From a virus: DNA of 15,727 nt. The stretch is from the UHGV virus genome UHGV-0344409; one strand, given 5' to 3'. The notes beneath the pieces are model-generated. The model was not told where the DNA came from. It made no database searches and saw only the letters and a program-made list of their open reading frames with translations. Below are positions 1,953 through 15,095 of the stretch, one piece after another. Numbering within the stretch: the first letter of the stretch is position 1; each line of letters begins with the position of its first letter. The position numbers and the translations under genes were made by a program.

Positions 1953-2660
1953 TTACCAGCTATGTGATGACCAGAACACTCGCCCTATGATTCTTACGTT
2001 TTTGTAGAATTCTTCTCTGTTCATTACTTCATCAGGATACTCTTCGCGGTTTATCGATCTGATAATTACCGATGTTGGCGTGGCTATGAGCGTTTTTACC
2101 CTTAACAAATCAGCTTGGCAAATTGCATATGTTTTACCATCCCTGATGCTCGTATCTTGCGTGTTTACCCCCACCACATCACCATCATGGAGTGTTGGCT
2201 CCATGCTTTGCCCAACAACCCTGACCAACTTTGCCGCTTTTTCTGGAACTCCCATTTTTTTCAGGTAATAGCGCCTAAAAACTAGAGAGAATTCTGCGGA
2301 CTCCTCCAATGCACAACTTCCTCCGCCAGCTGAAAGTGAAATATTTAGAAGGGGGAGCGCAACAAATTCGTCATTATCATTTTGATGATCATCCCAGGCG
2401 ATAGCTTTTAAAGATGATTCCCGAGCATTAGATGGCTCTTCTGCGCTCTGTGGTCTCATTGACCCTATACCAGAGCTTAGCCATTCAGGGCGAACTCTTA
2501 ACGCGTTGGCTAATTCGACCATTTTACGTGATCCGGTTGTTTTACCAGATGACATCTTTTGTATGGCTGGTTGTGATACCCCCACCATGTCTGCAAGTTG
2601 TGCTTGTGACAACCCGGCTGAACTCATGGCGGCATTTAGTCTTTCTGCGAATGTTTTCAT
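1953..2660 (-). CDS. cI: CI-type prophage repressor (HTH plus S24 LexA-like autopeptidase domain)
   Basis: 235 aa; N-terminal HTH LSQAQLADMVGVSQPAIQKM; C-terminal VVGQSMEPTLHDGDVV with downstream Lys, typical of the S24 Ser-Lys dyad; divergent from cro across the operators. Confidence 0.9.
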   Translation of the reverse strand: MKTFAERLNAAMSSAGLSQAQLADMVGVSQPAIQKMSSGKTTGSRKMVELANALRVRPEWLSSGIGSMRPQSAEEPSNARESSLKAIAWDDHQNDNDEFVALPLLNISLSAGGGSCALEESAEFSLVFRRYYLKKMGVPEKAAKLVRVVGQSMEPTLHDGDVVGVNTQDTSIRDGKTYAICQADLLRVKTLIATPTSVIIRSINREEYPDEVMNREEFYKNVRIIGRVFWSSHSW

Positions 2661-3111: not shown

Positions 3112-3408
3112 ATGTCACAAACAAGTTACAGCAAACTGTCACAGCGCGATATCGATCGCGCTGAAACGGATTTACTTATCAACCTGTCAGCTCTGACGCA
3201 AAGGGGACTGGCGAAGATGATTGGCTGCCATGAATCGAAGGTCAGTCGTACCGACTGGCGATACATCGCGGCGATTTTATGCGCGTTTCAGATGGCATCT
3301 GATATCAGTCCGATCAGCCGGGCTTTCCAGCATGCCATTAACGTTCATGCAAATAAAAAACGTCCGGTTGGGGCCGGACGTTCTGAGCAAATCCTGATGA
3401 ATATCTGA
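3112..3408 (+). CDS. cII: CII-like transcriptional activator
   Basis: 98 aa; C-terminus NKKRPVGAGRSEQILMNI closely resembles the lambda CII C-terminus as recalled; HTH-like LAKMIGCHESKVSR; gene order cro-nutR-cII-O. Confidence 0.8.
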   Translation: MSQTSYSKLSQRDIDRAETDLLINLSALTQRGLAKMIGCHESKVSRTDWRYIAAILCAFQMASDISPISRAFQHAINVHANKKRPVGAGRSEQILMNI

Positions 3409-3571
3409 TATTCAGGCAGGGCATGGAGCAATACACGGGAATAATTCTGCCACATCTGGAAGAATTTCGCCAGCAACAACACCAACCGCAGCAGCCTGAA
3501 GCCGATTGGGTTAACCCGGGAGATACCGGGACCGTCTGCGGTATGGAGTAAATCTTGTATGCGAGGGGACT

Positions 3572-4654
3572 ATGCGTAATTACGCAACAATTTCACCTCA
3601 GTTCTGGTTAGGCGAAACAGGGAGAAAACTAAGGAAGTCTGGTCCGGAATGTATGGTAGTGGCGTTGTATATGATGACCTCGCCTCATTCCAATATGCTG
3701 GGCCTTTATTACCTGCCTGTTTTGTACATTGCTCACGAAACCGGACTTGATCCTGAAGGGGCTTCTAAGGGGCTTCAAATGGCTTGCGAGGCTGGTTTTT
3801 GCAGCTATGACCATGATTCTGAGGTTGTATGGGTGCATGAAATGGCAGCATGGCAGGTTGGTGAATCGCTGAAACCTGGCGATAACCGTTGTGCTGGGGT
3901 AAGAAATGAATATTCCGCGTTGCTGGAAAATCCTTTTTTATCATCCTTTTATGATAGATATAAGGATGATTTCCACCTGGATGTCAGACGTGAATCATGT
4001 CGGAAAATTGAAGCCCCTTCAGAGCCCCTTTCAAGCCAAGAACAGGAACAAGAACAAGAACAGGAAAGGGATAAAACCCTTCTGGTCCATGGCGAAAAAA
4101 TCGCCACGGACCCGCAGGGGGATTTTTGTCCTGTTCTGACTGAACGTCCAGGACCAGCTGGCACGACACCGGAAGCAGATTCCGGGCGTTGTGTGCAGCA
4201 GGTGCTGATCGTCGAACCGGAGCAACAACGCCAACCGCAGCAGCCTGAAGCCGATTCCGCGATGAGCGGGAAGCCGATTGGGTTAACCCGGGCGATGCCG
4301 GGACCGTCTGCGGGACGAGTTGATTATCCTGACGTGTTCGAACGGGTCTGGCGTGAATATCCGCATCGGGCAGGGTCAAACCCGAAGAAATCCGCGTTCA
4401 ATGCCTGGAGGGCCAGATTACGCGAAGGGGTGTCACCGGATGTCGTGCTGGATGGCGTGAGGCGTTACGCAAGATACCTGGAGGCTACCGGGAAAGCGGG
4501 AACTGAATTTGTTCAGCAGGCATCGACGTTTTTTGGCCCGAACAGGAATTTCGAAAATCCGTGGTCGCTGCCGAAGGCTGGCGCAGTCAGCCTGCGTTGC
4601 GTGAATCACATTTCTGAACCGGACACCGAAATTCCGCCGGGTTTCAGGGGGTAA
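3572..4654 (+). CDS. replication initiation protein (O position) with DnaT-like C-terminal domain
   Basis: 360 aa; GAGGGG RBS; C-terminus ...VNHISEPDTEIPPGFRG resembles the E. coli DnaT C-terminus as recalled; internal (QE)5 linker; immediately followed by the DnaC-like gene. Confidence 0.75.
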   Translation: MRNYATISPQFWLGETGRKLRKSGPECMVVALYMMTSPHSNMLGLYYLPVLYIAHETGLDPEGASKGLQMACEAGFCSYDHDSEVVWVHEMAAWQVGESLKPGDNRCAGVRNEYSALLENPFLSSFYDRYKDDFHLDVRRESCRKIEAPSEPLSSQEQEQEQEQERDKTLLVHGEKIATDPQGDFCPVLTERPGPAGTTPEADSGRCVQQVLIVEPEQQRQPQQPEADSAMSGKPIGLTRAMPGPSAGRVDYPDVFERVWREYPHRAGSNPKKSAFNAWRARLREGVSPDVVLDGVRRYARYLEATGKAGTEFVQQASTFFGPNRNFENPWSLPKAGAVSLRCVNHISEPDTEIPPGFRG

Positions 4655-4660
4655 TCAGCC

Positions 4661-5401
4661 ATGAAAAACATTTCGACAGGAGGGATTCTTGAACGGGTGC
4701 GCCGTCTGGCACCACCGCACGTGGCAGCACCGTTCCGGACGACCGACGAATGGCGGGAATGGCAACTGGCTGAGGGCCGTAAGCGCAGCGAGGAAATTAA
4801 CCGCCTGAATCATCAGGCGCGGGTTGAAAAAATCCTGAACCGTTCGGGCATCCAGCCGCTTCACAGGAAGTGCTCATTCGGGAACTACCGGGTGCAGAAC
4901 GACGGTCAGCGCCATGCTCTGAGTCAGGCAAAATCCATCGCGGCAGAGCTGCATACCGGCTGCACGAATTTCGTGTTCAGCGGTAAACCTGGCACCGGGA
5001 AAAATCACCTTGCAGCAGCGATTGGCAACTGGCTAATGGCGAAGGGGAGAAGCGTGATTATCGTCACCGTGTCCGATGTCATGAGTGTGTTGCATGACGG
5101 CTACGACAACGGCAAGTCCGGGGAAAAATTTTTACAGGAGCTTTGTGGAGTTGACCTTCTGGTCCTTGATGAAATTGGCATGCAGCGGGATACGCGCAAC
5201 GAGCAGGTCATACTGAACCAGATCGTCGACCGCAGAACGGCATCACTGCGCAGTGTCGGGATGCTGACTAACCTGAATCACGGTGCGATGAGCAGGCTTC
5301 TGGGGGAGCGAGTGATGGACCGTATGACCATGAATGGTGGTCGTTGGGTGAATTTTAACTGGGAGAGCTGGCGGTCAAACGTTGGACGTCAGGGTATGTG
5401 A
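4661..5401 (+). CDS. DnaC-like helicase loader (phage P-position replication protein)
   Basis: 246 aa; Walker A FSGKPGTGKNHLAAAIGNWL and Walker B LLVLDEIG, very close to E. coli DnaC; AGGGGG RBS; starts 7 nt after the O stop. Confidence 0.85.
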   Translation: MKNISTGGILERVRRLAPPHVAAPFRTTDEWREWQLAEGRKRSEEINRLNHQARVEKILNRSGIQPLHRKCSFGNYRVQNDGQRHALSQAKSIAAELHTGCTNFVFSGKPGTGKNHLAAAIGNWLMAKGRSVIIVTVSDVMSVLHDGYDNGKSGEKFLQELCGVDLLVLDEIGMQRDTRNEQVILNQIVDRRTASLRSVGMLTNLNHGAMSRLLGERVMDRMTMNGGRWVNFNWESWRSNVGRQGM

Positions 5402-5426: not shown

Positions 5427-6197
5427 ATGGAAACCGTATTGCATGCACTGAAAGCGATGGGAAAAGCCAATTCTGTTGAACTGGCGGCGCGGCTTGATAT
5501 CAGCCGTGAAGAAGTTCTCAACGAACTGTGGGAACTCAAAAAAAATGGCGTTGTTGATAAAACGGGTCACACCTGGTTTCTGGCTGTCGAAGGTGAATCC
5601 CGGGTAACCGAAGAGCGGCCAGTAAAATCTGAAACACAGGATATGCTGACCGAAGAGGTCGCTCCAAAAGTTAGCGCTGACATGATGATTGAGTTTATCT
5701 CTCAGGAGGGGGCTAAAACCTGTGAAGAAATAGCGGGTAAGTTCGGAGTTACCACTCGCAAGGTTGCTTCCACGCTGGCGGTGGTAACCGCAACGGGGCG
5801 GCTGGCACGCGTTAATCAGAACGGTAAATTTCGTTACTGCATGCCGGGGGGTAATTTACCAGCAGATCCGAAAACCGCGCCGGTAACGGAAAATGATGGT
5901 AAGGCCTTTCCTCAGCCAGCAGGTGCTGCGTTACCAGTCCGGGAAGCCGCAACACAGGAAGAAATTAAAACAGAAACTGTGGCGGACATTGTGCAGTCGT
6001 TGCCATCGTTTACCGAAACGCAAGCAGATGAGCTGATTTTTCCGTCCCTGCGCAGGGCAAACCTGGCGCTGCGCAGGGCGAAAAGTGATGTTCAGAAGTG
6101 GGAGCGAGTCTGCGCCGCGCTGCGGGAGCTGAATAAACACCGGGATATTTTCAGTTCGATTGCCGATATTCCGGTTCATTCACCGACAACAAAGTGA
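5427..6197 (+). CDS. hypothetical protein with two winged-helix-like segments (256 aa)
   Basis: GAGG RBS 9 nt upstream; HTH-like blocks NSVELAARLDISREEVLNELWELKKNGVV and KTCEEIAGKFGVTTRKVASTLAVVTATGRL; acidic, Pro-rich middle. Confidence 0.6.
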   Translation: METVLHALKAMGKANSVELAARLDISREEVLNELWELKKNGVVDKTGHTWFLAVEGESRVTEERPVKSETQDMLTEEVAPKVSADMMIEFISQEGAKTCEEIAGKFGVTTRKVASTLAVVTATGRLARVNQNGKFRYCMPGGNLPADPKTAPVTENDGKAFPQPAGAALPVREAATQEEIKTETVADIVQSLPSFTETQADELIFPSLRRANLALRRAKSDVQKWERVCAALRELNKHRDIFSSIADIPVHSPTTK

Positions 6198-11695: not shown

Positions 11696-11724
11696 TTGCT
11701 TTCGAGAAATGAAAGTAGTATGTT
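11696..11724 (+). promoter_or_regulatory. PR'-like late promoter candidate
   Basis: TTGCTT (11696-11701), 17 nt spacer, TATGTT (11719-11724), about 25 nt after the Q-position gene stop. Confidence 0.3.
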
Positions 11725-11831
11725 TTGTGTATGCTCGGAGCAAAAGCGCACTGAGAAGCGAAAGAGAAATCCTGATTTACCTCGGTCGTCGATAATATTT
11801 AGGATCGGCATACTGGCTAGATTAGGTAAAG

Positions 11832-11858
11832 GCCTCGGCAGAAATGTCGGGGCTTTTT
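11832..11858 (+). terminator. tR'-like intrinsic terminator
   Basis: GCCTCGGCA-gaaa-TGTCGGGGC (9-bp stem with two G-U pairs, GNRA loop) followed by TTTTTGTTT. Confidence 0.55.
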
Positions 11859-11990
11859 GTTTGCACAACAGGTAAGAGCATTGAACCCGCAGACCTCGTG
11901 GAATTGGTGAAAGGTGTGCGCAGTGCTCTTATCGTTGTGGTGAAGCTCAATGGCGAGCTAGCAGACAGGCGACTGTGAAAATACTAGTCA

Positions 11991-12062
11991 TGTAGCGGAT
12001 CGCCGCGCGTATTGTAATCGGCAGCGCACCGATGGGAGCTGGTTCGATTCCGGCCGCCACAA
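11991..12062 (+). other. tRNA-like element (possible tRNA pseudogene or remnant)
   Basis: Canonical T-arm GCTGG-TTCGATT-CCGGC (12038-12054); acceptor pairing TGTAGCG (11991-11997) with CGCCACA (12055-12061), one A-C mismatch; perfect anticodon-type stem ATCGG/CCGAT (12017-12033). D-arm and 7-nt loop CAGCGCA are non-canonical and CCA is not encoded. Confidence 0.3.
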
Positions 12063-12181
12063 TCCAAACTGAGCCGTAGCCTCTGGGTGTCCTGAATTCA
12101 TCAGTGATAGTTACGCTGCGGCCTTCTACATACGATTTTTGTGAAAAGCGGGTGGCAAGAGGCTGCGAAATTTTTAAATAC

Positions 12182-12399
12182 CTCACAATTCCACAGCTTG
12201 ATGATTGTCTGGCTGCCGGAGAATTTGTTAAAAATTGCATCGCGTGGTGAATCCCCCTCAGCGGCGGGGCATCTGGCAAAGTGTATGATCCAGCGAACAT
12301 GCAAATTCAGTAGCCAGGCTGAATTTACCGGGAGGCACCTGGCACCATGCGACAGACAGAAATTAGGCTATACTTCAGCCCCTCTCCGGAGGGGCTTTT
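12182..12399 (+). repeat. structured non-coding repeat unit, copy A (candidate sRNA), ending in an intrinsic terminator
   Basis: Ordered conserved blocks shared with copy B: CTCACAATTC, GATTGTCTGG, TTTGTTAAAAA, GGTGAATCCCCCT, GCGGnGGGGCAT, CACCGGGAGGCACC, CACCATGC. Hairpin AAATTCAG-tagccagg-CTGAATTT (12303-12326); terminator GCCCCTC-tccg-GAGGGGC-TTTT (12378-12399). Confidence 0.6.
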
Positions 12400-12589
12400 C
12401 TGTGCAGGATGTGTCACAGTTTCCTGAATTCTGAGTACTGTCCTGTTACTCAGGGTGCTATATTTTCTGACGTGATGAAAGTCTGCCGGAAGGCGGAACG
12501 TATCGGAAATGACCCAGTAGAGAAAACGTTGACTCAGATACCGATGCTGAGTTACCGGGAAACCGGCATCACATGACCGCTATCCTTCC

Positions 12590-12613
12590 AGGCTCGCTCC
12601 GGCGGGCCTTTTT
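12590..12613 (+). terminator. intrinsic terminator between the two repeat copies
   Basis: AGGCTCGC-tccg-GCGGGCCT followed by TTTT; same TCCG loop as the copy A and B terminators. Confidence 0.5.
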
Positions 12614-12650
12614 ACTGCAGAAAACAGTTTTCCCGTAAAATGCCACGTTA

Positions 12651-12882
12651 CTCACAATTCAGGCTGGCGATTATTGTCTGGCCAGCGGGAAGTTTGTTAA
12701 AAAAATATGGCATGGTGAATCCCCCTGTGCGGAGGGGCATATCAGCGACAGGTGTTTGGTCACACCCCTTATCCTTTCTGGTGCGGGTTCAGGTGCTGAT
12801 ACTGAACTCACCGGGAGGCACCCTGCACCATGCATGAACGGTACATAGCGCTACTCTCCAGCCCCTCTCCGGAGGGGCTTTC
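12651..12882 (+). repeat. structured non-coding repeat unit, copy B (candidate sRNA), ending in an intrinsic terminator
   Basis: Same block order as copy A; hairpin GGTTCAG-gtgctgata-CTGAACT (12786-12808) carries a compensatory A-T to G-C change relative to copy A; terminator GCCCCTC-tccg-GAGGGGC-TTTC (12861-12882). Confidence 0.6.
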
Positions 12883-12891
12883 TTGTTGGAT

Positions 12892-12921
12892 AAAAAAAAG
12901 CCCGCGCCGGGAAGCGCGGGT
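12892..12921 (-). terminator. minus-strand intrinsic terminator facing the copy B terminator
   Basis: A8 run (12892-12899) then GCCCGCGC-cgggaa-GCGCGGGT; on the minus strand this reads as a stem followed by U8. Confidence 0.45.
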
Positions 12922-13121
12922 GGCAAGGAATAAACAACAAAACGTGAAGTGATCAATTTTCAGCTGGCGAATAATACCTGATAGTAATCACTCTGCGCAA
13001 CTGTATGGTCTTTTTCGTATTGCGGGCTGTAGTCATCCTCCTGTTTCTGAACCCTTGTCCATGACTGACGTCAGCCCGCACCTTATCTTGATTGCATACA
13101 CTATCCCTGCCGGGAGGAATA

Positions 13122-15095
13122 ATGGCATTTAAACACTATGACGTGGTCAGGGCATCATCGCCGTCAGACCTCGCAGGAAAACTGACGCAAAAACTGAAGG
13201 AAGGCTGGCAACCCTATGGTAGTCCGATTATCTCAAACGCGGGTTATGGTGCTGAATTTATCCAGGCTATAGTCGCTGAAGGGGATATGACCTCTCCGGT
13301 AGTTTCACCGGGGGGAGATGGTACCCGGACTGTTGTTGTTGAACCAGAATATTACTTTGTCATTGCGCTGGCCGGACAGTCAAACGGCATGGCGTATGGT
13401 GAAGGCCTGCCGCTGCCGGAGACATATGACCGTCCGGACCCGCGTATTAAACAGCTGGCGCGTCGCAGTACGGTGACACCGGGTGGTGCGGCCTGTGCAT
13501 ATAACGACATCATTCCGGCGGACCACTGCCTGCATGATGTGCAGGATTTGAGCCGTTTTTCTCATCCGAAAGCCAGCGCAGAGCAGTATGGGTGTGTCGG
13601 ACAGGGATTGCATATTGCCAAAAAGCTGTTGCCCTTTATGCCGGAAAATGCGGGTATTTTGTTAGTGCCGTGCTGTCGTGGTGGCTCTGCGTTTACAGCC
13701 GGTGCTGACGGAACGTTCAGTGAAAGTTCAGGAGCGTCGGATAAATCTGAACGATGGGGCGTTGATAAGCCGTTGTATAAAGACCTGCTGACACGCACTC
13801 AGGCCGCGCTGAAGGCAAACCCCAAAAACATACTGCTTTGTGTTGTCTGGATGCAGGGCGAGTTTGATTTAAAACAGGGAGCGTACGCCAGTCAGCCCGC
13901 CATGTTTGATGCCATGGTGGAAAAATACCGTTCTGACCTGGCGGGAGTATCCGGTCAGTGCGCTGGTGCTTCTCCTTCTCTGGTGCCCTGGATTTGTGGT
14001 GACACGACGTACTACTGGAAGGAGACGTATTCAGCGCAATACGATGCCGTCTATGGCGCATACAAAACCAAAGCCGGTAAAAATATCTTCTTTGTGCCGT
14101 TTATGATGGATGACAATGGTCAGAAAGTCGGGACCAATGAACCGTCAGAAGACCCGGATATTCCGGCTATCGGGTATTATGGTTCCGGTGGACGAACGGA
14201 TGCGAAGAGCTGGACAACATCCGATCGTAAAACCCACTTTGGTTCATGGGCGCGTCGCGGAATTATTTCCGACCGTCTGGCAACAGCCATTCTTCTGCAT
14301 GTGGGCAGAGTGGCAGATTTTGTTTCCGGGAAAGTGACAAAAGCCGCGGTTTCTTCAGGCGGAGGCGTATCGCAACCAGCACAGGAGAGTGGCGATACTC
14401 AGCCTGAATCCGTTGTCCCGACAAAGATACAGTCAGTGCTGGCTTATGATGCGAATGCGGAAAATGCCGATCTGGCTTCGCAGGGCTGGACGCTGACAGA
14501 TGTCAAAAACACGCTGGTCAGTGACAGTGGTTCAGGTAAAAAAGCCCTTCGTCTTGAAAAACCAGAAAATGGTCTTGCACAGAAAAAGACCTGGAAAGTA
14601 TCGCACGCAATTGATGCCGGTAAGGGGAAGGAGCTGTTCGATAACGGCGGTGAAATCACGCTGCGCTTTAAAATCCCCGATGATGTATCTCTCAATGCTT
14701 CTGCAAATCAATATTCTGCGGGTATTTACTGGCGCGGTAGTGGATGGCCGGGAGCGGAATCAGAGGAGGGTTATATTGCGGCCTTCTATCTGCAGACTGA
14801 TAAAACAAACATCAATGTGATGTATCATGCAAACACCACATCACAGCGGCTTGGTAGTTATGGTCCGTTCGATCACGACTGGCACACGCTGACTTTCCGC
14901 TTCCCGGGTGGTGGCTCGCTGAACGTCACGCCGGTGCTTGATAATGCAGCAGGAAAACCGTTTACGCTGACCAGATGGACGAATGCAGCCTTTGAGGCCA
15001 ACGCGCTGGCAATTACGGATATTACCGGAAATGCGGCAACTTACCCTGTGCTGATTGAAAGTCTTACTGTTGGTGTGAATGCCGTAGCAGCATAA
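13122..15095 (+). CDS. nanS-p: NanS-p-like prophage sialate 9-O-acetylesterase (DUF1737 N-terminus plus SGNH/SASA esterase domain)
   Basis: 657 aa from the ATG at 13122 with GGGAGG 4 nt upstream (track starts at the TTG at 13092); N-terminal MAFKHYDVVRASSPSDLAGKLTQKLKEGWQPYGSPI; GQSN motif in IALAGQSNGMAYGEG; sits where Stx phages carry nanS-p downstream of stx. Confidence 0.8.
   Translation: MAFKHYDVVRASSPSDLAGKLTQKLKEGWQPYGSPIISNAGYGAEFIQAIVAEGDMTSPVVSPGGDGTRTVVVEPEYYFVIALAGQSNGMAYGEGLPLPETYDRPDPRIKQLARRSTVTPGGAACAYNDIIPADHCLHDVQDLSRFSHPKASAEQYGCVGQGLHIAKKLLPFMPENAGILLVPCCRGGSAFTAGADGTFSESSGASDKSERWGVDKPLYKDLLTRTQAALKANPKNILLCVVWMQGEFDLKQGAYASQPAMFDAMVEKYRSDLAGVSGQCAGASPSLVPWICGDTTYYWKETYSAQYDAVYGAYKTKAGKNIFFVPFMMDDNGQKVGTNEPSEDPDIPAIGYYGSGGRTDAKSWTTSDRKTHFGSWARRGIISDRLATAILLHVGRVADFVSGKVTKAAVSSGGGVSQPAQESGDTQPESVVPTKIQSVLAYDANAENADLASQGWTLTDVKNTLVSDSGSGKKALRLEKPENGLAQKKTWKVSHAIDAGKGKELFDNGGEITLRFKIPDDVSLNASANQYSAGIYWRGSGWPGAESEEGYIAAFYLQTDKTNINVMYHANTTSQRLGSYGPFDHDWHTLTFRFPGGGSLNVTPVLDNAAGKPFTLTRWTNAAFEANALAITDITGNAATYPVLIESLTVGVNAVAA

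What the first reader, a model, noticed from the sequence alone, without database searches (positions are those of the whole stretch)
3468..4313. A ~75-bp internal segment of the O gene is duplicated in the cII-O intergenic region, with a 23-bp indel flanked by the direct repeat GAAGCCGATT
3468-3542 (upstream of the O start) matches 4219-4313 (inside O) at high identity, except that the internal copy carries 23 extra bp between two GAAGCCGATT repeats (4247-4256 and 4270-4279; single copy at 3498-3507). The upstream copy falls in a 42-codon ORF (3423..3551) in a different frame, so the duplication is DNA-level. It may be a scar of recombination between O alleles, or a functional site such as iteron-like binding sequence placed outside the gene.
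Basis: seen in the sequence. Interest (0 to 1): 0.5.

Follow-up and report, generated by a model that had tools for sequence, protein, structure and literature searches.

The report
Replication-gene linker copied upstream, variable repeat
A 70-bp piece of a prophage replication gene's flexible linker has been copied to just upstream of that gene, at an old recombination joint, where it behaves as an unstable repeat rather than as a demonstrable functional site: a real but fairly ordinary by-product of phage mosaic evolution.

Summary
The repeat is real. Window 3472-3541 matches 4221-4313 at 67/70 positions, apart from 23 extra bp in the internal copy between two GAAGCCGATT.

The internal copy is the native one. 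It encodes the interdomain linker of a two-domain replication initiator. This initiator is the 'Eru4' type, not a lambda O homologue. A different initiator type (phage Tritos) has the same linker.

The upstream copy is derived:
- It begins where homology to the lambda-type cII-oop-pO-O' region ends, so it sits on a mosaic joint.
- It occurs only in one E. coli/Shigella clade that is about 95-100% identical in this module. It is absent from 25 more distant relatives of the same N-domain.
- Among close relatives it is a variable tandem array of 1-3 units of 90 or 113 bp, with or without the 23 bp. The window carries the one-unit allele.
- It exchanges sequence with the internal copy, and in one lineage recombination between the two deleted the initiator's N-domain.

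The 42-codon ORF is not conserved in frame or length. The segment fails the iteron tests; better ori-iteron candidates (GAAGCCCCTT) lie elsewhere in the gene.

Verdict: a recombination scar that became an unstable repeat. Modest interest.

The parts
3112..3408 (+). cII gene
   Evidence: Pfam Phage_CII, E = 6.5e-26. Annotated as cII in relatives.
3352..3437 (-). oop-like antisense RNA. The 5' end is inferred; the terminator is at 3384->3357.
   Evidence: Intrinsic terminator on the minus strand. Two-hairpin fold, z = -4.0. Window 3352-3408 is 77% identical to lambda 38597-38653, which is annotated as oop in HK629/HK633/434. The 5' end is inferred from the position of the pO-like -10 hexamer CAGAAT (reverse complement of 3444-3449), which aligns with the reverse complement CATAAT of lambda's ATTATG; that this hexamer is lambda's pO -10 is from my own knowledge.
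3424..3465 (+). Remnant of a lambda-type cII-O intergenic region plus about the first 7 codons of a lambda-type O gene (the pO region). The ATG equivalent is CTG at 3447-3449.
   Evidence: Local alignment to phage PA28 scores 17 (shuffle maximum 13, 0/2000). Alignment to lambda scores 13 (3/2000). Alignments.
3472..3541 (+). Upstream (derived) copy of the rep linker segment. This is the single-unit allele of a variable tandem array.
   Evidence: Relatives carry 2 or 3 units of 90 bp or 113 bp.
3498..3507 (+). Single GAAGCCGATT. This is the deletion junction where the 23-bp segment is missing.
   Evidence: The 23 bp are still present in upstream copies of L007, L077 and L078.
3423..3551 (+). 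42-codon ORF (PHROG 2751, unknown function), probably not a real gene.
   Evidence: Variants of 42, 46, 51, 58, 62, 72, 76, 88 and 102 aa exist, with different frames after about residue 30. In L007 a stop falls in unit 1. Its start lies in sequence homologous to lambda non-coding DNA.
3572..4654 (+). Replication initiator gene (360 aa, Eru4 type). N-domain about aa 1-164, linker about aa 140-250, C-domain about aa 248-360.
   Evidence: PHROG 1701, with N part 1-188 and C part 207-360. No Pfam family. Homologous to the Tritos initiator only from aa 165. Eru4 type per PMC8951638.
4172..4181 (+). Degenerate GAAGCAGATT (PEADS peptide repeat) in the linker.
   Evidence: Tritos has four GAAGCCGAT in its linker.
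4221..4313 (+). Internal (native) copy. It encodes linker residues about 217-247 (EQQRQPQQPEADSAMSGKPIGLTRAMPGPSAG).
4257..4279 (+). The 23-bp segment (CCGCGATGAGCGG plus the second GAAGCCGATT) that the window's upstream copy lacks.
   Evidence: In Tritos the equivalent spacing is 24 bp, in frame: EADSAIQR-EADR.
4661..5401 (+). DnaC/IstB-like helicase loader, part of the same replication module.
   Evidence: Pfam IstB_IS21, E = 3.5e-18.

Best explanation
The upstream segment is a non-coding, DNA-level paralogue of the initiator gene's linker-coding region. It was left at the joint where an Eru4-type replication module (rep plus dnaC-like gene) was joined to a lambda-type cII-oop-pO region. I infer that it has no site-specific function of its own. 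It works as a recombination substrate.

Shown:
- The internal copy is the native context.
- The upstream copy abuts the end of lambda-type homology.
- In close relatives the upstream copy is a head-to-tail array that expands and contracts by whole units (90 or 113 bp) and by sub-repeats (a 16-bp unit, the 23 bp between the two GAAGCCGATT, and a G-run).
- The window carries the minimal one-unit allele. This equals a 90-bp deletion relative to the common two-unit allele.
- Upstream and internal copies share lineage-specific substitutions, which indicates gene conversion.
- Crossing-over between upstream and internal copies deleted the N-domain and candidate origin in one lineage.

Inferred:
- The 23-bp gap arose by slippage or recombination between the two GAAGCCGATT. 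These are relics of an in-frame EAD(S/R) peptide repeat in the linker.
- The array arose by tandem duplication at the joint.
- The last unit persists because homology-driven loss of it would also remove the essential N-domain, not because it is selected.
For: 1. Native context. Tritos-type initiators have an unrelated N-domain but share the linker and C-domain: 64% amino-acid identity from aa 165, 82-83% at the DNA level. They also have the segment between two GAAGCCGAT.
2. Joint. Window 3424-3465 is significantly similar to the lambda/PA28 intergenic region plus the O 5' end. Window 3352-3408 matches lambda oop. The repeat starts at 3472.
3. Clade restriction. The array is in 81 of 5426 E. 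coli genomes and the rep N-domain in 78. All 32 IMG/VR loci with at least 99% identical N-domain have 1 or 2 units. None of 19 IMG/VR loci at 47-75% identity, nor of the 6 bacterial-genome relatives examined, has an upstream/internal repeat.
4. Variable array. Alleles seen: 1 unit (window, L010, L022, L023); 2 units (most); 3 units (L008); 3 units of 113 bp (L007); mixed 113+90 (L077); 1 unit with the 23 bp (L078); extra 16-bp units (P0002).
5. Concerted evolution. In L007, GATGCC is present in all three upstream units and in the internal copy, against GAAGCC in every copy of every other locus extracted. L077 unit 1 is 100% identical to its own internal copy over 75 nt.
6. Deletion. In SW071619 the crossover lies within GAAGCCGATTGGGTTAACCCGGG and rep is a pseudogene lacking its N-terminus.
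7. No coding constraint. ORF frames and lengths vary. L007 and the window differ by 4 non-synonymous and 0 synonymous changes in the first 21 codons (read).
8. No special RNA or ssDNA structure: z from -1.7 to +0.5.
Against: - No genome was found with this rep module and zero upstream units. That would also be expected if the element were required.
- Substitution diversity in the upstream units (pi 0.002-0.0075) is not higher than at 4-fold sites of rep (0.006-0.015), and is lower than in the internal copy (0.0148). Some constraint, or homogenisation, cannot be excluded.
- The palindrome GGGTTAACCC is kept in nearly every unit.
- GAAGCCGATT shares 8 of 10 positions with the candidate iteron GAAGCCCCTT.
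- The exact series of events that produced a linker copy at the joint could not be reconstructed. The flanks of the upstream copy are not detectably homologous to each other.
Confidence: 0.68

Rival explanations
1. The upstream units are cis-acting replication-control sites. They would be auxiliary initiator-binding sites outside the origin, like the iteron arrays that flank plasmid rep genes or the crr repeats of phage P4. They would titrate or 'handcuff' the initiator, or enhance origin firing, and copy number would tune the effect.
For: - The units are direct repeats placed on both sides of the N-domain and candidate-origin segment.
- The array is always present with this rep module.
- Each unit carries a perfect 10-bp palindrome, GGGTTAACCC, and a GAAGCCGATT that matches the candidate iteron GAAGCCCCTT at 8 of 10 positions.
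- Substitution diversity is low.
Against: - The segment is also present in Tritos-type genes, whose N-domain is unrelated and whose internal iterons are GTCACG. It therefore does not co-vary with DNA-binding specificity.
- The palindrome is not conserved in Tritos.
- 25 distant homologues of the N-domain keep the GAAGCCCCTT clusters or close variants, but have no upstream copy.
- Unit number (1-3), unit length (90 or 113 bp) and inner structure vary freely. The window has one unit and lacks the 16-bp sub-repeats.
- The segment is GC-rich (0.61-0.68) and lies away from the AT-rich trough at 3880-3999.
Confidence: 0.15
2. The small ORF (42 aa here, 72 or 102 aa in relatives; PHROG 2751) is a real gene for a repeat-containing peptide. 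It might, for example, be translationally coupled to rep or mimic the initiator linker.
For: - It is called as a CDS in many genomes and has its own PHROG family.
- The 90-bp unit is a multiple of 3, so 1-, 2- and 3-unit alleles stay in frame.
- The ORF ends 20 nt before the rep start codon.
- The first block is in the same codon phase as in rep.
Against: - The 113-bp unit is not a multiple of 3, and the L007 ORF stops in unit 1.
- At least five different C-terminal readings exist.
- All 4 differences between L007 and the window in codons 1-21 are non-synonymous.
- The start codon and first 14 codons lie in DNA homologous to the lambda non-coding/pO region and overlap the oop-like RNA.
- The Shine-Dalgarno sequence is poor, judged from the sequence.
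Confidence: 0.07
3. The direct repeats are a selected cassette boundary. They would let the origin plus N-domain module be excised or swapped by homologous recombination, acting as a programmed switch of replication competence or a device for module exchange.
For: - The repeats bracket exactly the specificity module: N-domain plus candidate iterons.
- A natural deletion between them exists.
- A mosaic boundary with Tritos-type genes lies at the linker.
Against: - Only one deletion lineage was seen, in two genomes from one study, and it gives a frameshifted pseudogene.
- No reciprocal duplication was seen: one N-domain place per genome in all 78 genomes.
- Tritos-type phages lack the upstream copy, so it cannot serve as a shared left handle.
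Confidence: 0.05

Closest known systems
Mosaic-joint scars and partial gene remnants in lambdoid phages (module exchange at or inside genes). General knowledge, not tested in a database.
   Same: The upstream copy sits exactly at the boundary between a lambda-type block (cII-oop-pO-O' remnant) and an unrelated replication module. It is a partial, out-of-context copy of a neighbouring gene and is restricted to one clade.
   Different: The scar is a copy of an internal part of the incoming gene, not a leftover of the replaced one. It has since become a tandem array that still exchanges sequence with its parent.
Variable-number tandem repeats (minisatellite-like) evolving by unequal crossing-over, slippage and gene conversion.
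   Same: Head-to-tail units of 90 or 113 bp. Alleles of 1-3 units among near-identical genomes. Sub-unit indels at short direct repeats. Homogenisation of variants across units.
   Different: One extra, dispersed unit lies 0.75 kb away inside an essential gene. Array dynamics are therefore coupled to a coding sequence and can delete part of it.
Lambda ori iterons inside the O gene linker.
   Same: A repeated DNA motif lies in the part of an initiator gene that encodes the interdomain linker.
   Different: Lambda's sites are four 18-bp O-binding iterons spaced 20-24 bp apart, as annotated in the record. From general knowledge they have dyad symmetry, lie next to an AT-rich region and are specific for the O N-domain. 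Here the unit is 70-113 bp, GC-rich, shared with an initiator whose N-domain is unrelated, and far from the AT-rich trough. The motif clusters that do behave like iterons (GAAGCCCCTT) are at 3756-3776 and 4010-4030.
Phage P4 crr, and plasmid iteron arrays outside the origin (P1 incA, F incC). Recalled from memory as functional analogues.
   Same: Direct repeats of about 100 bp, or iteron clusters, lying outside the origin and flanking a rep gene.
   Different: Those elements contain the same short iteron as the origin, and the initiator binds them. Here the unit does not contain the candidate iteron (the best match is 8 of 10), and no binding data exist.

Membership tests
Origin iterons (lambda-type initiator binding sites) | Several short (about 10-22 bp) repeats in helical register | tested here: not met
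   The repeat unit is 70 bp (93 bp internally). The window has one upstream unit. The 10-mer GAAGCCGATT occurs at 3498, 4247 and 4270, with spacings of 749 and 23 bp.
Origin iterons (lambda-type initiator binding sites) | Adjacent AT-rich unwinding region | tested here: not met
   The internal copy is the most GC-rich part of the gene (0.61-0.68). The AT-rich trough (GC 0.35) is at 3880-3999.
Origin iterons (lambda-type initiator binding sites) | Sequence co-varies with the initiator's DNA-binding (N-terminal) domain | tested here: not met
   The same segment occurs in Tritos-type genes with an unrelated N-domain. It is absent from 25 homologues of this N-domain.
Origin iterons (lambda-type initiator binding sites) | Bound by the initiator | not testable with these tools
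   Needs EMSA or footprinting.
Recombination (mosaic-joint) scar / partial paralogue | A parent copy in a native, conserved context can be identified | tested here: met
   The internal copy is in-frame linker coding sequence, shared with Tritos-type genes, 23/24-bp segment included.
Recombination (mosaic-joint) scar / partial paralogue | Lies at a boundary between blocks of different ancestry | tested here: met
   Lambda/PA28 homology runs through 3352-3465 and stops. The repeat starts at 3472.
Recombination (mosaic-joint) scar / partial paralogue | Restricted to one lineage; not a general feature of the gene family | tested here: met
Variable-number tandem repeat | Head-to-tail units with copy-number polymorphism among close relatives | tested here: met
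   1, 2 or 3 units of 90 bp; 3 units of 113 bp; mixed arrays. The window itself has a single unit.
Protein-coding gene (PHROG 2751) | Reading frame and length conserved among relatives; purifying selection | tested here: not met
   Nine length and frame variants. Premature stop in L007. 4 non-synonymous and 0 synonymous differences in codons 1-21.
   No Pfam family at E <= 0.01. The best PHROG is 1701, 'DnaD-like helicase loader'. Only the position in the genome is O-like.
oop antisense RNA (for the left flank) | Short RNA antisense to the cII 3' end, with an intrinsic terminator and homology to lambda oop | tested here: met
   Terminator 3384->3357. Fold z = -4.0. 77% identity to lambda 38597-38653. 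Promoter activity is not testable here.

The most novel reading that the evidence does not exclude
The upstream units are a copy-number-tunable cis-regulator of this uncharacterised (Eru4) replication system. They would be auxiliary binding sites for the initiator or a partner protein, derived from the gene's own linker DNA. Unit number (1-3) would set replication or rep expression level, and thereby prophage stability in E. coli lineages, including Stx1 phages.
Probability: 0.1. Interest if true: 0.6.

Novelty: new member of a known kind. Interest (0 to 1): 0.27.

Why it matters
- Practical: the 42/72/102-aa 'hypothetical protein' (PHROG 2751) annotated in about 80 complete E. coli genomes and several Stx1 phages is most likely a repeat artefact. 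Its length is a hypervariable marker that could subtype Eru4-type prophages, and it may disturb short-read assembly.
- Biological: it is a clean natural example of three things. A mosaic joint can seed a tandem array. Such an array stays in sequence exchange with an essential gene 0.75 kb away. Such repeats can inactivate a prophage's replication module by deletion.
- As a by-product, the analysis points to where the origin of the so far unstudied Eru4 replication module probably lies: the GAAGCCCCTT clusters flanking an AT-rich trough inside rep.

Tried and rejected
- Extended duplication: I tested whether the flanks of the upstream copy (3409-3471 and 3540-3640) are themselves paralogous, as expected for a tandem duplication of ribosome-binding site, rep 5' end and linker. 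They are not: score 14 against a shuffle mean of 13.1, and 8 against 6.5.
- The right flank against lambda/PA28 is not significant.
- Structured RNA or ssDNA element: the plus-strand RNA of 3405-3590 gives z = -0.99. ssDNA folds of both copies on both strands give z from -1.7 to +0.5. Rejected.
- Rfam: the only hit is a sub-threshold AgvB match (20.7 bits against a gathering score of 56), on the oop-like RNA and not on the repeat.
- Empty site: I looked for a genome with this rep module but no upstream copy. None turned up in E. coli complete genomes, the phage collection or IMG/VR.
- Diversity test for constraint: inconclusive, with too few segregating sites.
- Literature on Eru replication types (PMC8044961, PMC8951638) mentions neither repeats nor iterons.
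- The genome-contig scan was largely wasted on the low-complexity QEQEQEQE pattern. It returned only 7 distant loci.

Full report

Yes. The repeat finder reports two collinear direct-repeat blocks:
- 3472-3507 = 4221-4256 (36 nt, 97%).
- 3493-3541 = 4265-4313 (49 nt, 92%).

Their offsets (749 and 772) differ by 23 bp. GAAGCCGATT occurs once upstream (3498) and twice internally (4247, 4270). A degenerate fourth copy, GAAGCAGATT, is at 4172. Merged, 67 of 70 positions agree. A local alignment of the intergenic region against the gene scores 78, against 18.9 +/- 2.2 (maximum 28) for shuffles.

**2. Gene context**

| Coordinates | Feature | Evidence |
|---|---|---|
| 1953-2660 (-) | cI-like repressor | |
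| 2717-2995 | Cro-like | |
| 3112-3408 | cII (Pfam Phage_CII) | |
| 3423-3551 | 42-codon ORF | |
| 3572-4654 | 360-aa replication protein, no Pfam family | |
| 4661-5401 | DnaC/IstB-like loader | |
| 5427-6197 | DUF1627 protein | |
| further right | NinB, RusA, NanS-p-like esterase; no tRNA genes | |

- The replication protein matches PHROG 1701, 'DnaD-like helicase loader'. Separate PHROGs cover its N part (1-188) and its C part (207-360).
- The closest sequenced phages, at 98-99%, are PhiR5_2, phiSTEC1589-Stx1c, Shigella phages POCJ13 and 75/02 Stx.
- 75/02 Stx is the type example of the 'Eru4' replication region of Stx phages. The authors say that nothing is known about the replication proteins of the Eru phages (PMC8951638).
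- So 'O gene' is right by position only.

**3. Which copy is the original?**

- Tritos-type phages have an initiator whose N-domain is unrelated. Their annotation calls it 'replisome organiser', and it carries internal GTCACG iterons.
- Their linker and C-domain are nevertheless homologous to the window's: 64% amino-acid identity from residue 165, 82-83% at the DNA level from window 4173.
- Their linker contains the same segment, including the piece between two GAAGCCGAT.
- In Tritos the two motifs are 24 bp apart and in frame, giving EADSAIQR-EADR. The motif occurs four times in that linker.
- GAAGCCGATT is therefore the DNA trace of an EAD(S/R) peptide repeat.
- In the window's gene the spacing is 23 bp, and a second 1-nt difference downstream restores the frame. 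That is a compensated frameshift, which shows that this stretch is a sequence-tolerant linker.
- The internal copy is therefore native. The upstream copy is derived, and its missing 23 bp is a deletion between the two direct repeats.
- Upstream copies that still contain the 23 bp exist in L007, L077 and L078. This confirms the polarity.

**4. What the upstream copy looks like in relatives**

| Allele | Where seen |
|---|---|
| Two head-to-tail units, 90-bp period (72-aa ORF) | All four related phages; most genomes |
| One unit | Window, L010, L022, L023; 7 of the 60 listed E. coli genomes; 4 of 32 IMG/VR loci |
| Three units (102-aa ORF) | TOE17 (L008) |
| Three 113-bp units, each keeping the 23 bp | 23CRST047 (L007) |
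| Mixed array, 113 + 90 bp | L077 |
| Extra 16-bp sub-repeats | P0002 |
| CCCGG(G)AG G-run variants | several loci |

- The window differs from the two-unit form by exactly one 90-bp unit, deleted within 41 bp of identity.
- The array occurs in 81 of 5426 complete E. coli genomes.
- One-unit alleles occur with at least three different cI/cro backgrounds. Contraction has therefore probably happened more than once.

**5. Sequence exchange with the internal copy**

- In L007 all three upstream units and the internal copy carry GATGCC. Every copy in every other locus extracted (window, L001-L004, L008-L010, L018-L023, L077, L078) has GAAGCC, as does Tritos.
- L007's last upstream unit and its internal copy also share GGGAGATGCC.
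- In L077, unit 1 is identical to that genome's internal copy over 75 nt.
- Whatever the direction, a change has spread between sites 0.75 kb apart. That is concerted evolution.
- In SW071619 (and its sibling SW07163) a crossover inside GAAGCCGATTGGGTTAACCCGGG joined the upstream unit to the internal copy. This removed the N-domain and left a frameshifted pseudogene.

**6. Where the upstream copy sits**

- Window 3352-3408 is 77% identical to lambda 38597-38653, the oop RNA region.
- The minus strand has an intrinsic terminator at 3384->3357 and a two-hairpin fold with z = -4.0.
- Further right, 3424-3465 aligns significantly with the lambda and PA28 cII-O intergenic region plus the first seven or so codons of a lambda-type O gene. 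Against PA28 the score is 17 with a shuffle maximum of 13 (0/2000). Against lambda 3 of 2000 shuffles reach the score (alignments).
- The hexamer aligned with lambda's ATTATG (reverse complement CATAAT, which from my own knowledge is lambda's pO -10) is CAGAAT here (reverse complement of 3444-3449). The O start codon equivalent is CTG at 3447.
- Homology stops at about 3465-3473, and the linker-derived repeat begins at 3472.
- The upstream copy is therefore the first thing on the 'new module' side of a mosaic joint.
- The flank to its right (3542-3571, the rep ribosome-binding site) is not similar to lambda or to the left flank.
- I therefore could not reconstruct the exact chain of events. 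One possibility is an illegitimate join of a lambda-type O 5' end to a rep linker, followed by re-acquisition of a complete rep gene.

**7. Is it a functional site?**

*Iteron reading*
- The segment does not track the DNA-binding domain. It is present with the unrelated Tritos N-domain.
- It is absent from 19 IMG/VR loci (47-75% identity) and from the 6 bacterial-genome homologues of this N-domain that were examined.
- It is the most GC-rich part of the gene, whereas the AT-rich trough lies at 3880-3999.
- The array varies freely in unit number and unit structure.
- Another motif does behave like an iteron. GAAGCCCCTT occurs twice on the minus strand at 3756-3776 with 11-bp spacing. It recurs on the plus strand at 4010-4030 (one exact copy and one with 2 mismatches). 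The two clusters flank the AT-rich trough.
- The same motif in the same arrangement recurs in homologues from Caldimonas and Methyloversatilis (exact copies), and a close variant recurs in Contendobacter. In L055, judging from its protein sequence, the second cluster is flipped and reads EGASKGL instead of EAPSEPL.

*Small-protein reading*
- ORF variants of 42, 46, 51, 58, 62, 72, 76, 88 and 102 aa exist, with at least five different C-terminal readings.
- In L007 the ORF stops in unit 1.
- The four differences between L007 and the window in codons 1-21 are all non-synonymous.
- The start codon lies in DNA homologous to lambda non-coding sequence.

*Structure and diversity*
- The folds show nothing unusual.
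- Nucleotide diversity in the units (0.002-0.0075) is in the range of the rep gene itself, and the test is inconclusive.

*Absence of zero-unit alleles*
- This is not evidence of selection. Homology-driven deletion can shrink the array to one unit. The last unit can only recombine with the internal copy, which destroys rep, as in SW071619.

**8. Verdict**

A real, non-chance, DNA-level duplication. It is best explained as a recombination scar at a module joint that became an unstable tandem repeat in concerted evolution with its parent segment. The window carries the contracted single-unit allele. I found no description of it in the Eru literature, but it belongs to a familiar class of events. 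A regulatory role is not excluded, and I put it at about 0.1-0.15. Interest is modest.

Noticed in passing
window 3756-3776 (-), 4010-4030 (+), AT-rich trough 3880-3999: Candidate origin of the uncharacterised Eru4-type initiator. GAAGCCCCTT occurs twice 11 bp apart on the minus strand, then once exactly plus a 2-mismatch copy on the plus strand 250 bp downstream. The two clusters flank the only AT-rich trough of the gene (GC 0.35). Exact copies of the motif in the same arrangement are conserved in Caldimonas and Methyloversatilis homologues, and a close variant in a Contendobacter homologue. In L055, judging from its protein sequence, the second cluster is inverted, which argues for a DNA-level rather than protein-level constraint.
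   Followed up: partly
window about 3352-3437 (-): oop-like antisense RNA overlapping the cII 3' end. It has an intrinsic terminator at 3384->3357 and a two-hairpin fold (z = -4.0), and is 77% identical to lambda oop. The candidate pO -10 hexamer is CAGAAT, with a TG one base upstream. It also gives a weak sub-threshold Rfam hit to the prophage anti-sRNA AgvB (20.7 bits, gathering score 56).
   Followed up: partly
L009 (E. coli SW071619, NZ_CM129853.1) 2606-2700: Natural deletion between the upstream unit and the internal copy. It removes the initiator N-domain and candidate origin and leaves a replication-defective prophage. The same allele is in SW07163.
   Followed up: yes
window 4577-4651 (rep aa 336-360): The C-terminal tail of the initiator weakly resembles the C-terminus of E. 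coli DnaT / primosomal protein 1 (PDB 2ru8, 6aep, 9zbt; E = 0.008-0.03). This may explain the 'primosomal protein I' annotation and hints at how the DnaC-like loader is recruited.
   Followed up: no
window 4031-4066: Imperfect (CAAGAACAGGAA)n repeat encoding (QE)n in the linker. Together with other linker indels, length variation here probably underlies rep alleles of 358-366 aa among near-identical prophages; this was not checked by alignment.
   Followed up: no
L005 (phage Tritos) 2537-2575 and 2797-2845: Two clusters of GTCACG repeats, mostly at 10-bp spacing, lie 260 bp apart inside the N-domain coding part of the Tritos-type initiator gene. They probably mark its origin. The layout parallels the two GAAGCCCCTT clusters of the window's gene.
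   Followed up: no
window 3112-3408 versus 3409-4654: Among about 40-47 related loci, cII is far more diverse (4-fold pi 0.07) than everything from the cII stop codon rightwards (pi 0.002-0.015). A recent mosaic boundary therefore lies near the cII 3' end / oop region, and oop-pO-array-rep travels as one young block.
   Followed up: partly
window 11700-15095: A NanS-p-like sialate O-acetylesterase gene (DUF1737 + SASA + DUF6645, 13092-15095) lies in the late region, the position it has downstream of stx in Stx phages (from general knowledge). No tRNA genes were found, and no stx-sized ORF is evident upstream, so this looks like an stx-negative relative of Eru4 Stx1 phages.
   Followed up: no
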